Below, piece by piece: positions 28,455-30,629 of a DNA stretch of 64,000 nucleotides. The notes beneath the pieces are model-generated. The model did no database searches, had not been told where the DNA came from, and worked only from the letters and a program-made list of their open reading frames with translations. This stretch comes from Giardia intestinalis (lineage: Eukaryota): the NCBI GenBank assembly GCA_000002435.2, contig CM018793.1; one strand, given 5' to 3'. The translations under genes and the position numbers were made by a program. Each line of letters starts with the position of its first letter. The first letter of the stretch is position 1.

Positions 28455-30629
28455 ATGGCTTATATTAGAATGCTGTTATTGACTTTCTACTTCATAGTGA
28501 ATAGTTTCGCAGCGCCTTGCCAACAGAAGGGGTATCACATGGTAACATGCAAACCGAATAGCTGTGAAAGAGTTGGTGTCATAGAGATTTGTGTTCAGTG
28601 TAGGGCAGGAGGGGTTCCTATCAATGGACAATGCTCTCTATTCGACACTTCTTATGTTGCTGAAGCGAGATGTACCAAAAGTGATGGTACCGCTTTGACA
28701 AGTTCCGATACTACCTGCGGAAAGTGCGGCGGTGAGTACTTTCTCTTCATGGGAGGGTGTTATGGCATAAAGTATAGACCTGGCAATGAGATATGCACTA
28801 GGGCTGATGATGGAAAGTGTACCACTTGTAATACAGGAAATAGTGGTAAATACGTATTTAAGAATGGAGACCCTAATGCTGCGCCGGGAACAGAATGCAT
28901 TCTGTGCCATGATACGATGGGAGCAAATGGATATACAGGAGTAGCAAACTGTGCAGAGTGTAGCCATGCAGGAACTAGTTCTGGTGCTGCTACCTGTGGA
29001 AAATGCCAGACAGAATACTTTAAGAGTGGAGATACATGTACACCATGTGGAGCTGATTGTTGGATTTGTGAATCTACAGCTAAGTGCACAGTGTGCAAAT
29101 ATGGAAAATATATAAAAGAAAATGGTAATGATAGAACTTGTGTAGACACTAGTGGATGTGGTACTGGTAACTATGCAGATATAAGAACAAACGAGTGCAA
29201 GCCGTGCACGGACACAAGTGTCAATGAATGTGCTACGTGTACATACAGTGACACCCTCAGGAAGCCCGTATGCACTGGGTGTAATAGTGGAGGAGCCAAG
29301 CCTCTCCTTAAGGTGGACCTCGATGGGTCAGCGACGTGCGTTGCGGAGGGAGAGTGTGCAAGTGGCAATACGCACTTCCTTGAACAATCTCCAAAGGCTT
29401 GTGTCCCGTGTGGTGATGCTAAGAATGGTGGGATTCTAGGTTGTAGCACTTGCTCCTCTAAAACTACATGTACAAAGTGCCTCGATGGATATTACAATAG
29501 TGGAAATGGTGGTACGGTTACATGCACAGCTTGCGGTGCCAACTGTGCTACATGCTCTGCTGCTGGCAATGATCAGTGCACTAAATGCAAGCCTGGATTC
29601 TTCATGAAACAACCCGGCTCTGCTGGTAAGTGCTTCGCCTGCGACAGTAAAGCCGACAATGGCATCGAGGGGTGCTCCCAATGTAACAGCGGCCTAACCC
29701 CTACATGCACCGATTGCAAGTCCAACTATCGCAAGGAGGGAACCAATCCGGTGAAGTGCACAAAGGCCTGCGAGGACCCCACGGCCTGCGGGGGGACGTC
29801 TGGGGCCTGCGGGGCGGTCGTCGTTGACAGCGCCGGGGCGTTCTCCCAGTACTGCTCGCTGTGCGGAGACCCCGCCACATTCCCCATCGATGGCGTTTGC
29901 ACAGGGGATAAGGGCGGGAATACCTGTGCCAATGGCGTCTGCACCCGGTGTGCTGCCGGGTTCTTCCTCTTCATGGGCGGCTGCTATGATGTGTCGAAGG
30001 CTCCTGGCAGTCACATGTGCAAGAGCGCCGAGGGAGGGAGGTGCACCGTCCCTGGTGAGAGTGGTCGATACTTCATAGTCCCTGGAGCATCCAGCACTGA
30101 TCAGTCTGTCCTGACATGTAGTAACCCAGTAGGCACACTGACAGGTACTGGTAGTACCGCTAAGGCATATGTGGGGGTATATGGCTGTTCGGCATGCACA
30201 ACCCCAGTAGCTCCGTCTGATGGTGGTATGACTGCTGCTGTGTGTACAGCGTGTAACAACAACAATAAGCCCAACCTGGCTGGCAGTGAGTGCCTCACAT
30301 GTACCGTTAGTGGATGCTCGCACTGCAACAGGGATGACATGTGCTCCGCCTGCACAGAGGGGGGCAAGAGGCCGAACATAGACGGCTCCCAGTGCATCCC
30401 CTGCAATATCGACGGGTGCGTCAGGTGCAGCGAGGAGAACAAGTGCGGCCAGTGCGGGGGTGACTACAAGCTGGAGGGTGAGGCGTGCATATTCACCAAG
30501 CCCAGCGGGGGCAACAGGAGCGGACTCAACAAAGAGGCCATAGCCGGCATCGCTGTTGCTGTCATCATCGTCGTCGGGGGCCTCGTCGGTTTCCTCTGCT
30601 GGTGGTTCATATATAGAGGGAGAAAGTAA
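28455..30629 (+). CDS. VSP-like high-cysteine membrane protein (724 aa): signal peptide, CXXC and GGCY repeats, a TM segment, and a non-canonical C-terminal tail ...GFLCWWFIYRGRK* in place of CRGKA.
   Basis: ATG at 28455 behind an AT-rich initiator ('gctaaaaacataggATGGCT'). N-terminus MAYIRMLLLTFYFIVNSFAA. Two GGCY motifs (FMGGCYG, FMGGCYD). The C-terminal ~300 aa are clearly paralogous to the truncated VSP at 18941 (GGCYDVSKAPGSHMCK..., AKAYVGV.GCS.CT.P..., TAAVCT.C...KPN). Confidence 0.88.
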   Translation: MAYIRMLLLTFYFIVNSFAAPCQQKGYHMVTCKPNSCERVGVIEICVQCRAGGVPINGQCSLFDTSYVAEARCTKSDGTALTSSDTTCGKCGGEYFLFMGGCYGIKYRPGNEICTRADDGKCTTCNTGNSGKYVFKNGDPNAAPGTECILCHDTMGANGYTGVANCAECSHAGTSSGAATCGKCQTEYFKSGDTCTPCGADCWICESTAKCTVCKYGKYIKENGNDRTCVDTSGCGTGNYADIRTNECKPCTDTSVNECATCTYSDTLRKPVCTGCNSGGAKPLLKVDLDGSATCVAEGECASGNTHFLEQSPKACVPCGDAKNGGILGCSTCSSKTTCTKCLDGYYNSGNGGTVTCTACGANCATCSAAGNDQCTKCKPGFFMKQPGSAGKCFACDSKADNGIEGCSQCNSGLTPTCTDCKSNYRKEGTNPVKCTKACEDPTACGGTSGACGAVVVDSAGAFSQYCSLCGDPATFPIDGVCTGDKGGNTCANGVCTRCAAGFFLFMGGCYDVSKAPGSHMCKSAEGGRCTVPGESGRYFIVPGASSTDQSVLTCSNPVGTLTGTGSTAKAYVGVYGCSACTTPVAPSDGGMTAAVCTACNNNNKPNLAGSECLTCTVSGCSHCNRDDMCSACTEGGKRPNIDGSQCIPCNIDGCVRCSEENKCGQCGGDYKLEGEACIFTKPSGGNRSGLNKEAIAGIAVAVIIVVGGLVGFLCWWFIYRGRK

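What the first reader, a model, noticed from the sequence alone, without database searches (positions are those of the whole stretch)
29690..30629. Mosaic composition of the VSP-like gene: AT-rich codons in the 5' half, GC-rich in the 3' third, and a segment shared with the truncated VSP 10 kb away
The region 28455 to about 29650 uses A/T-ending codons ('aatggtaatgatagaacttgtgtagacactagtggatgtggtactggtaac'). From about 29700 it switches to G/C-ending codons ('gcctgcgaggaccccacggcctgcggggggacgtctggggcctgcggggcggtcgtc'). The C-terminal ~300 aa align with the 18941 VSP at about 60% protein identity. There are stretches of about 80% DNA identity, for example 'aaggcatatgtgggggt..atggctgttcg'. An abrupt shift in codon composition, together with a block shared with a neighbouring family member, suggests a chimeric gene built by recombination or gene conversion between VSP-family members.
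Basis: seen in the sequence. Interest (0 to 1): 0.55.

Follow-up and report, generated by a model that had tools for sequence, protein, structure and literature searches.

The report
Patchwork Giardia surface-protein gene
A Giardia surface-protein gene carries a roughly 270-base stretch copied from a distant sister gene, absent from the same gene in a second strain; this kind of gene-to-gene copying is already documented for the family, so it is a clean example rather than a surprise.

Summary
The window is Giardia intestinalis WB. The gene at 28455-30629 (+) is XP_001708031.1, annotated "High cysteine membrane protein Group 1". It belongs to the VSP lineage but its tail is YRGRK, not CRGKA.

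- **Composition.** The codon mosaic is real (z=21 against synonymous-codon shuffles). It has four GC3 blocks, not two: 0.36, 0.77, 0.41 and 0.83. Other VSP genes are also heterogeneous (z 4.6-11.6). Twelve neighbouring non-VSP ORFs are not.
- **Chimerism.** The gene is chimeric, but not with the truncated VSP at 18941. That gene is an ordinary family relative (59% aa identity; 70.6% DNA identity over 371 nt).
- **The real partner.** It is a VSP outside the window (XP_001707628.2). Window 29605-29878 differs at 2 of 274 nt from that VSP's DH-strain copy, synonymous sites included. The 5' flank is only 50-60% identical.
- **Strain polymorphism.** The syntenic gene in strain DH lacks the tract: 66% identity there, against 95-99% elsewhere. 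In 29563-29834, 88 of 91 informative sites group WB with the other VSP (0/10,000 permutations).
- **Timing.** The composition shift also exists in the unconverted DH allele, so it predates this event.

The best explanation is recent, one-way copying between non-allelic genes (ectopic gene conversion). VSP recombination is already published.

The parts
28455..30629 (+). Gene A: VSP-lineage cysteine-rich membrane protein. It equals XP_001708031.1 / KAE8305264.1, 'High cysteine membrane protein Group 1', Giardia intestinalis WB. The functional start is probably Met6 at 28470.
   Evidence: The 724-aa ORF is 100% identical to P0001. Pfam PF03302 VSP scores 130 bits. It has 31 CXXC motifs and 11.7% Cys. 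The ENA gene model starts at MLLLTF, matching the P0002 N-terminus. WB-DH dN/dS is 0.27-0.30 outside the tract.
28455..29627 (+). Private, AT3-rich 5' part of the gene (GC3 0.36).
   Evidence: Change-point analysis. No paralogue exceeds about 50-53% aa identity over aa 1-355. DNA identity to P2/P5 is 0.51-0.60 and synonymous sites are saturated. Identity to the DH allele over 28455-29510 is 96.6%.
29511..29604 (+). 5' junction zone. WB differs here from both its DH orthologue (74%) and from P2 (65%). The encoded peptide matches a third VSP.
   Evidence: Many sites are unique to WB and partition identities are low. The peptide TCTACGANCATCSAAGNDQCTKCKPGFFMKQPGS is identical to P0027 (XP_001706653.1). 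CLDGYYNSGNGGTVTC just upstream is identical to P0019 and P0011.
29605..29878 (+). Core conversion tract, identical to VSP P2 (XP_001707628.2 lineage).
   Evidence: 2 differences in 274 nt versus the DH copy of P2, against 91 versus the gene's own DH orthologue. The longest exact run is 212 nt, 29667-29878. All synonymous sites are identical in codons 406-450. In 29563-29834, 88 of 91 informative sites group A_WB with P2, with 0/10,000 permutations reaching this.
29835..29878 (+). 3' junction: a 44-nt block with no informative site among A_WB, A_DH and P2_DH. This is the homology in which the tract ends.
   Evidence: The last paralogue-type site is at 29834 and the first orthologue-type site at 29879. 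The alignment is shown.
29628..30050 (+). First GC3-rich block (GC3 0.77). It contains most of the tract but extends beyond it.
   Evidence: The equivalent block in the DH allele (codons 377-549) has GC3 0.69.
29953..29995 (+). A second small patch where the WB and DH alleles differ and WB agrees with P2, P5 and B.
   Evidence: 9 of 9 informative sites in 29981-29995 (0/5000 permutations). Site list.
30051..30314 (+). AT3-leaning block (GC3 0.41) inside the 3' third. It is almost invariant between WB and DH.
   Evidence: WB-DH identity is 0.97; identity to P2, P5 and B is 0.74, 0.75 and 0.72. dS WB-DH is 0.038 for codons 543-612. The quoted strings are at 30162 and 30181.
30315..30626 (+). Second GC3-rich block (GC3 0.83): last extracellular repeats, transmembrane helix and the non-canonical tail YRGRK.
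   Evidence: P5_DH is 0.85-0.90 identical at 30381-30500. The tail IYRGRK is unique among 120 homologues, 67 of which end in CRGKA.
30627..30660 (+). Stop codon TAA, followed by a degenerate remnant of the VSP extended polyadenylation signal.
   Evidence: The sequence is 'taaacacacacttgaacagtaagcggcc'. The 18941 gene has 'tagacttaggtagtaaacgc'. The published consensus is ACTTAGRTAGTRAAYRY (bioRxiv 10.1101/2022.03.07.483299).
18941..20662 (-). Gene B: a 5'-truncated VSP with no Met and no signal peptide. It is the downstream member of a head-to-tail array.
   Evidence: ORF. The frame stays open upstream to two stop codons just after gene C. It has a CRGKA tail and an intact polyadenylation signal. 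tblastn aligns A aa 111-723 to 20656-18947 at 45%.
20698..22497 (-). Gene C: a full-length VSP, the upstream member of the same array. It is only 27% identical to gene A.

Best explanation
Gene A is a positionally conserved, tail-mutated member of the Giardia VSP family. It sits next to the E1 ubiquitin-activating enzyme gene in both WB and DH.

**The event.** After the WB (AI) and DH (AII) lineages separated, about 270-320 bp of the WB copy (window about 29511/29605 to 29834/29878) was overwritten. The template was a non-allelic VSP of the XP_001707628.2 ('P2') type elsewhere on the chromosome.
- The donor kept its own sequence, so this is non-reciprocal ectopic gene conversion, not a crossover.
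- Homology-directed repair of a break is the presumed route. That step is inferred, not shown.
- The 3' end resolved inside a 44-nt block identical in donor and recipient.
- The 5' end lies where identity to any paralogue falls below about 60%. There the sequence matches a third VSP (P0027), so either the true donor is an unsampled copy or there were two overlapping events.

**The wider pattern.** This tract is the youngest layer of an older patchwork.
- The 3' third of the gene is far closer to P2/P5 (dS about 0.8, 73-78% aa) than the 5' half is (synonymous sites saturated, 49% aa).
- Relationships among P2, P5 and B also change from segment to segment.

**The composition blocks.** They are older than the WB-specific event. 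They tend to coincide with segments that have close relatives in the family. I read them as inherited from GC3-rich donor cassettes, possibly with GC-biased repair. That step is inferred.
For: **Identity of the gene**
- Protein A is 100% identical to XP_001708031.1 (2007 annotation) and KAE8305264.1.

**Near-identity restricted to a tract**
- Protein windows aa 401-520 are 95-99% identical to P0002, against about 50% in the N-terminal half.
- At DNA level, identity to the DH copy of P2 (L002) is 98-100% in codons 385-470, synonymous sites included. The 5' flank is 46-60% identical, with synonymous-site identity 0.2-0.4.
- There are 2 differences in 274 nt and a 212-nt exact run.

**Conflict with the orthologue**
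- The syntenic DH allele (L003) and an ENA metagenome copy (L001) both lie beside the E1 gene.
- They are 95-100% identical to WB everywhere except 29511-29834, where identity is 66%. The adjacent E1 gene is 98.9% identical.
- Triplet test: 88 of 91 sites inside the tract are paralogue-type and 605 of 644 outside are orthologue-type. 0/10,000 permutations reach the observed score.

**Non-reciprocity and polarity**
- P2 carries the tract in both WB (protein, one aa difference) and DH (DNA).
- The DH version of gene A in this zone has no near-identical relative. The best is 63% among the 120 homologues and 53% in a dedicated database search.

**The gene is functional**
- WB-DH dN/dS is 0.27-0.30.

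**Patchwork in the wider family**
- Partition-by-partition identity matrices change topology.
- There are exact peptide matches to P0019/P0011, then P0027, then P0002, then P0005.

**Composition**
- z=21.
- The same four blocks occur in the DH allele.
- GC3 against best-paralogue identity gives rho=0.66, p=0.003 for A and rho=0.64, p=0.005 for P2.

**Precedent**
- GENECONV-detected recombination in the 3' 234-657 bp of WB vsp genes (PMC2996952).
- VSPs are enriched among gene-conversion events, and those events are GC-rich (PMC12669663).
Against: - The DNA of the WB copy of P2 and of P0027 could not be fetched. Donor identity at DNA level therefore rests on the DH orthologue of P2 plus WB protein sequences.
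- There is no outgroup allele. Polarity (P2 into A, in the WB lineage) is a parsimony argument.
- The 5' 94 nt of the replaced zone match neither P2 nor the DH allele at DNA level, so a single P2-to-A event does not explain the whole replaced segment.
- The link between GC3 and exchange is only correlative. It is absent for B (rho 0.18) and P5 (rho 0.26).
- WB-DH divergence against GC3 loses significance once the tract is excluded (rho 0.34, p=0.12).
- The AT-to-GC excess in the tract (49 vs 28, p=0.02) may simply reflect donor composition.
Confidence: 0.85

Rival explanations
1. Reverse polarity. The A-P2 identity is ancestral, or arose by A-to-P2 conversion before the WB/DH split, and it is the DH allele that was later overwritten by another donor.
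For: There is no outgroup. The DH version contains a 20-nt patch (29686-29705) where 12 of 12 informative sites match gene B. It also resembles the common VSP consensus 'NTFKCT.CK.NY'.
Against: - It needs two events instead of one.
- No near-identical donor for the DH version exists. The best is 63% among 120 homologues, which include many DH proteins, and 53% in a dedicated search.
- A_WB and P2_DH differ at only 0.7% in the core. That is no more than the 1.1% WB-DH divergence of the adjacent E1 gene.
Confidence: 0.07
2. One reading: the chimera was formed with the neighbouring truncated VSP at 18941-20533, and the GC3 switch marks the breakpoint.
For: B aligns along aa 111-723 of A and is 59% identical over the last 300 aa. 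In 30081-30260 it is 73-79% identical at DNA level, marginally the best of the DNA sequences I could obtain in some windows.
Against: - B is 51% identical in the tract core and 0.50-0.74 elsewhere.
- Its GC3 in the homologous stretch is 0.2-0.5, against 0.7-0.9 in A.
- P2 and P5 score the same or better overall in the one block where B does well.
- B's own closest relative is P0027 at 65%.
- The GC3 switch is also present in the DH allele, which lacks the tract.
Confidence: 0.03
3. The GC3 blocks reflect local mutation bias or selection on codon usage in VSP genes, not mosaic ancestry. Under this view the conversion tract and the composition pattern are unrelated.
For: - The DH allele shows the same blocks without the tract.
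- P2 is GC3-rich (0.84) in its own 5' part.
- The correlation with paralogue sharing is absent for B and P5.
- Published work reports that VSP and HCMP regions are GC-rich islands with atypical codon usage (PMC3091692).
Against: - Block edges are sharp and differ between aligned paralogues (B 0.2-0.5 where A is 0.7-0.9; P2 0.8-1.0 where A is 0.3). Position-specific selection therefore does not fit.
- GC3 tracks paralogue identity in A and P2.
- The main change-point sits 23 nt from the 5' edge of the P2-identical core.
Confidence: 0.25
4. Assembly artefact: reads from P2 were mis-joined into this locus.
For: VSP genes are repetitive and are known to disturb Giardia assemblies (PMC2996952).
Against: The same 724-aa protein is recorded under both XP_001708031.1 (2007 annotation) and KAE8305264.1, which sits on a 4.02-Mb chromosome-scale contig. 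The tract is only about 270 nt, shorter than one Sanger read (my own knowledge of read lengths). Both junctions are in frame, with smooth transitions.
Confidence: 0.02

Closest known systems
Recombination among Giardia lamblia WB vsp genes (Adam et al. 2010, BMC Genomics 11:424, PMC2996952)
   Same: Same organism and same gene family. Sawyer/GENECONV-type evidence for exchanged fragments within the more conserved 3' 234-657 bp, with linear arrays of 5'-truncated downstream members such as gene B.
   Different: - Here the recipient is annotated as an HCMP, not a VSP, and lacks the CRGKA tail.
- The tract lies 750-1020 nt upstream of the stop codon, outside the 657-nt 3' region analysed there.
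- The event is dated by a strain polymorphism (present in WB, absent in DH), not inferred only from paralogue comparisons.
Gene-conversion events between Giardia sub-assemblages AI and AII, enriched in VSPs and GC-rich genes (Nat Commun 2025, PMC12669663)
   Same: Non-reciprocal conversion is invoked. VSP genes are over-represented, the converted genes are GC-enriched, and the authors suggest that conserved VSP regions supply the homology.
   Different: Those events are read as AI-to-AII allelic introgression, with a median length of 3.3 kb. Here the donor is a paralogue in the same genome and the tract is about 0.3 kb. Paralogous conversion of this kind could be mistaken for inter-lineage 'introgression' in such scans (my inference).
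Segmental gene conversion from pseudo-VSP arrays in Giardia muris (Xu et al. 2020, PMC7641422)
   Same: Silent or truncated array members are proposed as reservoirs of fragments for conversion into intact genes.
   Different: In this window the adjacent truncated array member (gene B) is not the donor. The closest sampled relative of the tract is an intact VSP.
Mosaic VSG formation in Trypanosoma brucei (PMC13233330)
   Same: Short donor segments from several family members are stitched into one surface-antigen gene, with junctions in stretches of shared sequence. This rests on my own knowledge of the field; the paper was only listed, not read.
   Different: In T. brucei, mosaics form in an active expression site during infection and drive antigen switching. 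Giardia VSP switching is described as epigenetic or post-transcriptional. Nothing here shows that this conversion changes expression.

Membership tests
Giardia VSP (variant-specific surface protein) | VSP domain (Pfam PF03302) with many CXXC motifs and about 12% Cys | tested here: met
   PF03302 scores 130 bits against a cut-off of 31.4. There are 31 CXXC motifs and 11.7% Cys.
Giardia VSP (variant-specific surface protein) | Invariant 5-residue cytoplasmic tail CRGKA. [quoted passage not shown] | tested here: not met
   The tail is YRGRK in WB and YRRRK in DH and the ENA copy. It is unique among 120 homologues, 67 of which end in CRGKA. Under the classification of that paper the gene is therefore a CRMP/HCMP, not a VSP.
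Giardia VSP (variant-specific surface protein) | Extended polyadenylation signal ACTTAGRTAGTRAAYRY a few nt after the stop codon | tested here: not met
   Only a degenerate remnant is present ('acacttgaacagtaagc'). It is intact in gene B ('acttaggtagtaaac').
Giardia VSP (variant-specific surface protein) | Conserved C-terminal transmembrane helix (…GLVGFLCWWF…) | tested here: met
   The sequence AIAGIAVAVIIVVGGLVGFLCWWF aligns with P0002, P0004 and others.
Giardia VSP (variant-specific surface protein) | N-terminal signal peptide | not tested
   MLLLTFYFIVNSFAAPC resembles the P0002 N-terminus MLLIALHLVTSILAAPC. No signal-peptide predictor was run.
Ectopic (interlocus) gene conversion tract | A bounded stretch of near-identity to a paralogue, synonymous sites included, flanked by much lower identity | tested here: met
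   2 differences in 274 nt in 29605-29878. Identity is 50-60% on the 5' side and 75-88% on the 3' side.
Ectopic (interlocus) gene conversion tract | Phylogenetic conflict: inside the tract the gene groups with the paralogue, outside it groups with its orthologue, and the clustering is statistically significant | tested here: met
   88 of 91 sites inside against 39 of 644 outside are paralogue-type. 0/10,000 permutations reach the observed score.
Ectopic (interlocus) gene conversion tract | Non-reciprocal: the donor retains the sequence | tested here: met
   The P2 protein of WB is 99% identical through the tract. P2 DNA of DH is 99.3% identical. WB P2 DNA itself was not obtainable.
GC-biased gene conversion | Excess of weak-to-strong (AT to GC) changes introduced by conversion, independent of donor composition | tested here: inconclusive
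   In the tract, 49 AT-to-GC against 28 GC-to-AT differences relative to the DH allele (p=0.02). This cannot be separated from the donor simply being GC-richer. The GC3-sharing correlation is seen in A and P2 but not in B or P5.

The most novel reading that the evidence does not exclude
The GC3-rich blocks are cassettes that circulate among VSP-family genes. GC-biased repair during repeated ectopic conversion writes their codon composition, while segments that never exchange decay towards AT.

On this reading:
- A tail-mutated gene that is conserved in position and under purifying selection (an 'HCMP') still sits in the exchange pool, so the VSP/HCMP boundary is porous.
- Within-gene GC3 profiles could serve as a sequence-only map of recombination-active segments, in a parasite lineage (AI) that has been argued to be asexual.
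Probability: 0.25. Interest if true: 0.5.

Novelty: new member of a known kind. Interest (0 to 1): 0.3.

Why it matters
This is a very clean, datable instance of paralogue-to-paralogue gene conversion in the Giardia surface-antigen family. The donor lineage, the recipient, both junctions and an unconverted allele are all in hand.

- **Exchange reaches beyond VSPs.** It affects a gene that annotation places outside the VSPs, with no CRGKA tail.
- **A caution for comparative work.** A 0.3-kb paralogous tract makes orthologues look 34% divergent locally. That can mislead AI/AII comparisons and scans for 'introgression'.
- **A cheap testable lead.** The GC3 block structure suggests a link between exchange and codon composition.

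The general phenomenon is already published, so nothing here changes the overall picture.

Tried and rejected
- **Fetching WB DNA.** Exact look-ups for gene A and for its best paralogue P0002 both returned nothing. I used the DH orthologue of P2 (L002), the DH and ENA orthologues of A (L003, L001) and DH P5 (L004) instead.
- **A copy of the tract inside the window.** blastn and tblastn of gene A against the 64 kb found only genes B and C, at family-level similarity. The donor is not local.
- **Gene B as donor.** Rejected.
- **A donor for the DH version of the tract.** None among the 120 homologues and none in a dedicated database search (best 53%). That search collected only five candidates, so it excludes near-identical proteins only, not pseudogene donors.
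- **GC3 against WB-DH divergence, as a test of 'GC-rich means recombination-active'.** rho=0.43, p=0.02 over all windows, but rho=0.34, p=0.12 once the tract is excluded. Too weak to use.
- **GC3 against paralogue sharing in other genes.** Significant for A and P2, not for B or P5.
- **Structured RNAs or tandem repeats as a cause of the composition.** No Rfam hit in the window and no tandem repeats in 15.5-31 kb.
- **The 320-aa antisense ORF 29694-30656 and the 370-aa ORF 25599-26711.** I read both as by-products of GC-rich sequence. There is no Pfam hit for 25599-26711 and its composition is Arg/Ser/Pro-rich.
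Full report
**What the locus is**

The ORF at 28455-30629 (+) encodes 724 aa. It is 100% identical to XP_001708031.1 / KAE8305264.1, 'High cysteine membrane protein Group 1' of Giardia intestinalis WB, on a 4.02-Mb contig.
- It has the Pfam VSP domain, 31 CXXC motifs and the conserved VSP transmembrane helix.
- Its tail is YRGRK instead of CRGKA, which is unique among 120 homologues.
- The VSP extended polyadenylation signal is degenerate. It is intact in the 18941 gene.
[quoted passage not shown] The gene is therefore VSP-derived but not a VSP.
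- It lies beside the E1 ubiquitin-activating enzyme gene in WB, in strain DH (L003) and in an ENA metagenome copy (L001).
- WB-DH dN/dS is 0.27-0.30 outside the tract, so it is a constrained gene and not a pseudogene.

**Check of the observation**

- GC3 runs from about 0.2 to about 0.9 along the gene, with GC1 and GC2 flat.
- Against a null that shuffles third-position GC state within amino-acid classes, GC3 variance is z=21 (0/2000). The other VSP genes give z=4.6-11.6. Twelve non-VSP ORFs in the same window give z between -1.1 and 2.9.
- Segmentation gives four blocks, not two:

| Block | GC3 |
|---|---|
| 28455-29627 | 0.36 |
| 29628-30050 | 0.77 |
| 30051-30314 | 0.41 |
| 30315-30626 | 0.83 |

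- The last 300 aa are 59% identical to the 18941 gene.
- At DNA level that similarity is only 70.6% over 371 nt, plus 79% in the transmembrane/tail segment. Gene C shares the tail similarity equally.
- The 18941 gene is truly 5'-truncated. Its frame is open back to two stop codons just after gene C, with no Met or signal peptide. That makes it a downstream member of a linear array in the sense of Adam et al. 2010.

**The real chimerism**

A sliding comparison with 120 homologues showed aa 401-520 at 95-99% identity to one VSP, P0002 (XP_001707628.2, same chromosome, not in the window). The N-terminal half matches nothing better than about 50-70%.

I could not fetch WB DNA for that gene. I did fetch its DH orthologue (L002), the DH and ENA orthologues of gene A (L003, L001) and a third VSP, P5 (L004). 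Codon alignments show:
- **A_WB against P2_DH.** Identity is 98-100% in codons about 385-470, with every synonymous site identical in codons 406-450. The 5' flank is 46-60% identical, with synonymous-site identity near random.
- **A_WB against its own orthologue.** Identity is 95-100% everywhere except this zone.
- **Regional WB-DH identity.** E1 98.9%, A 5' part 96.6%, 29511-29834 66%, A 3' part 94.6%.
- **Triplet test.** 88 of 91 informative sites in 29563-29834 side with the paralogue, and 605 of 644 outside side with the orthologue. 0/10,000 permutations reach the observed score.
- **Core.** 29605-29878 has 2 differences in 274 nt and a 212-nt exact run.

**Junctions, polarity, reciprocity**

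- The 3' end falls in a 44-nt block (29835-29878) with no informative site among recipient, orthologue and donor.
- At the 5' side, 29511-29604 matches neither the DH allele (74%) nor P2 (65%).
- The peptide encoded by that 5' zone is identical to a third WB VSP, P0027. The peptide just upstream is identical to P0019/P0011. The region is therefore a patchwork, or the true donor is an unsampled copy, for example a pseudo-VSP.
- P2 keeps the tract in both WB (protein) and DH (DNA), so the exchange was non-reciprocal.
- The DH version of the zone has no close relative: 63% at best among the homologues and 53% in a dedicated search.
- The most economical reading is P2-type into A, in the WB lineage, after the AI/AII split. 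It is not proven, because there is no outgroup.
- The same protein is recorded under accessions from two WB annotations. This argues against a mis-assembly.

**Older layers**

- Outside the tract, the 3' third is much closer to P2/P5 (73-78% aa, dS about 0.8) than the 5' half is (49% aa, synonymous sites saturated).
- Partition matrices change topology for other genes too. P2-P5 identity is 0.96 at 29879-30050 but 0.63 at 30315-30500. P2-B identity is 0.89 in the tail.
- Small additional allele-specific patches are significant: 29981-29995, 30326-30340 and 29686-29705.
- The family exchanges segments generally, as already published.

**Composition versus conversion**

- The DH allele lacks the tract but has the same four GC3 blocks, with its main change-point at codon 376. 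The compositional shift therefore predates the demonstrable event.
- The change-point in WB (29627/8) lies 23 nt from the 5' edge of the P2-identical core. I infer that this boundary separates a private AT3-rich 5' part from a family-shared GC3-rich part, and that it is a recurrent limit for exchange, probably because homology upstream is too low.
- GC3 correlates with best-paralogue identity in A (rho 0.66, p=0.003) and P2 (rho 0.64, p=0.005), but not in B or P5.
- The tract raised GC3 from 0.62 to 0.71, with 49 AT-to-GC against 28 GC-to-AT differences.
- All this is compatible with GC-rich donor cassettes or GC-biased repair, but does not establish either.

**Verdict**

- The composition mosaic is real and highly significant.
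- The proposed partner and the equation of the GC3 switch with the breakpoint are wrong.
- The mechanism, ectopic segmental gene conversion among VSP-family genes, is a known kind (PMC2996952, PMC7641422, PMC12669663).
- This is a well-resolved new instance with a non-VSP-tailed recipient.

Noticed in passing
window 18605-18873 and 27031-27299 (direct, 97%); inverted copies at 16350-16810: A 269-nt direct repeat brackets an 8.4-kb block that holds the VSP array (genes C and B) and GC-rich ORF-poor DNA. Inverted copies lie 2 kb away. The DH contig L003 starts inside this repeat and is then collinear with window 27043-33629. The block may therefore be a WB-specific insertion or rearrangement, or a collapse or contig end in the DH assembly.
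   Followed up: partly
window 16000-19000 and 25000-27000: Two stretches with 60-63% GC against a window background of about 47%. The first has strong AT skew (-0.23 to -0.32 at 16-18 kb). Neither has an Rfam hit, a tandem repeat or a credible gene. The 370-aa ORF 25599-26711 is Arg/Ser/Pro-rich with no Pfam hit and looks spurious.
   Followed up: partly
window 29694-30656 (-): A 320-aa antisense ORF covers exactly the GC-rich 3' part of gene A. It is most likely a by-product of GC3-rich coding sequence on the other strand.
   Followed up: no
window 28455-28470: The annotated start (MAYIRM…) is probably 5 codons too long. Met6 (MLLLTFYF…) aligns with the N-termini of related VSPs and is the start used in the ENA gene model. 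Neither ATG has the PyAatgTT initiator context described for many vsp genes.
   Followed up: partly
L002 3001-5145 and L004 2001-4154 versus each other: The two DH VSPs P2 and P5 are themselves mosaics of each other. DNA identity is 0.95-0.96 in the columns aligned to window 29879-30314, but 0.63 in those aligned to 29511-29604 and 30315-30500.
   Followed up: partly
window 20534-20697 (-): Gene B's reading frame stays open upstream of its GTG, right back to two stop codons immediately after gene C's stop. It still encodes VSP-like sequence (WSEICTQASNGVCTACK…), so the array looks like a tandem duplication with the 5' end of B deleted.
   Followed up: yes
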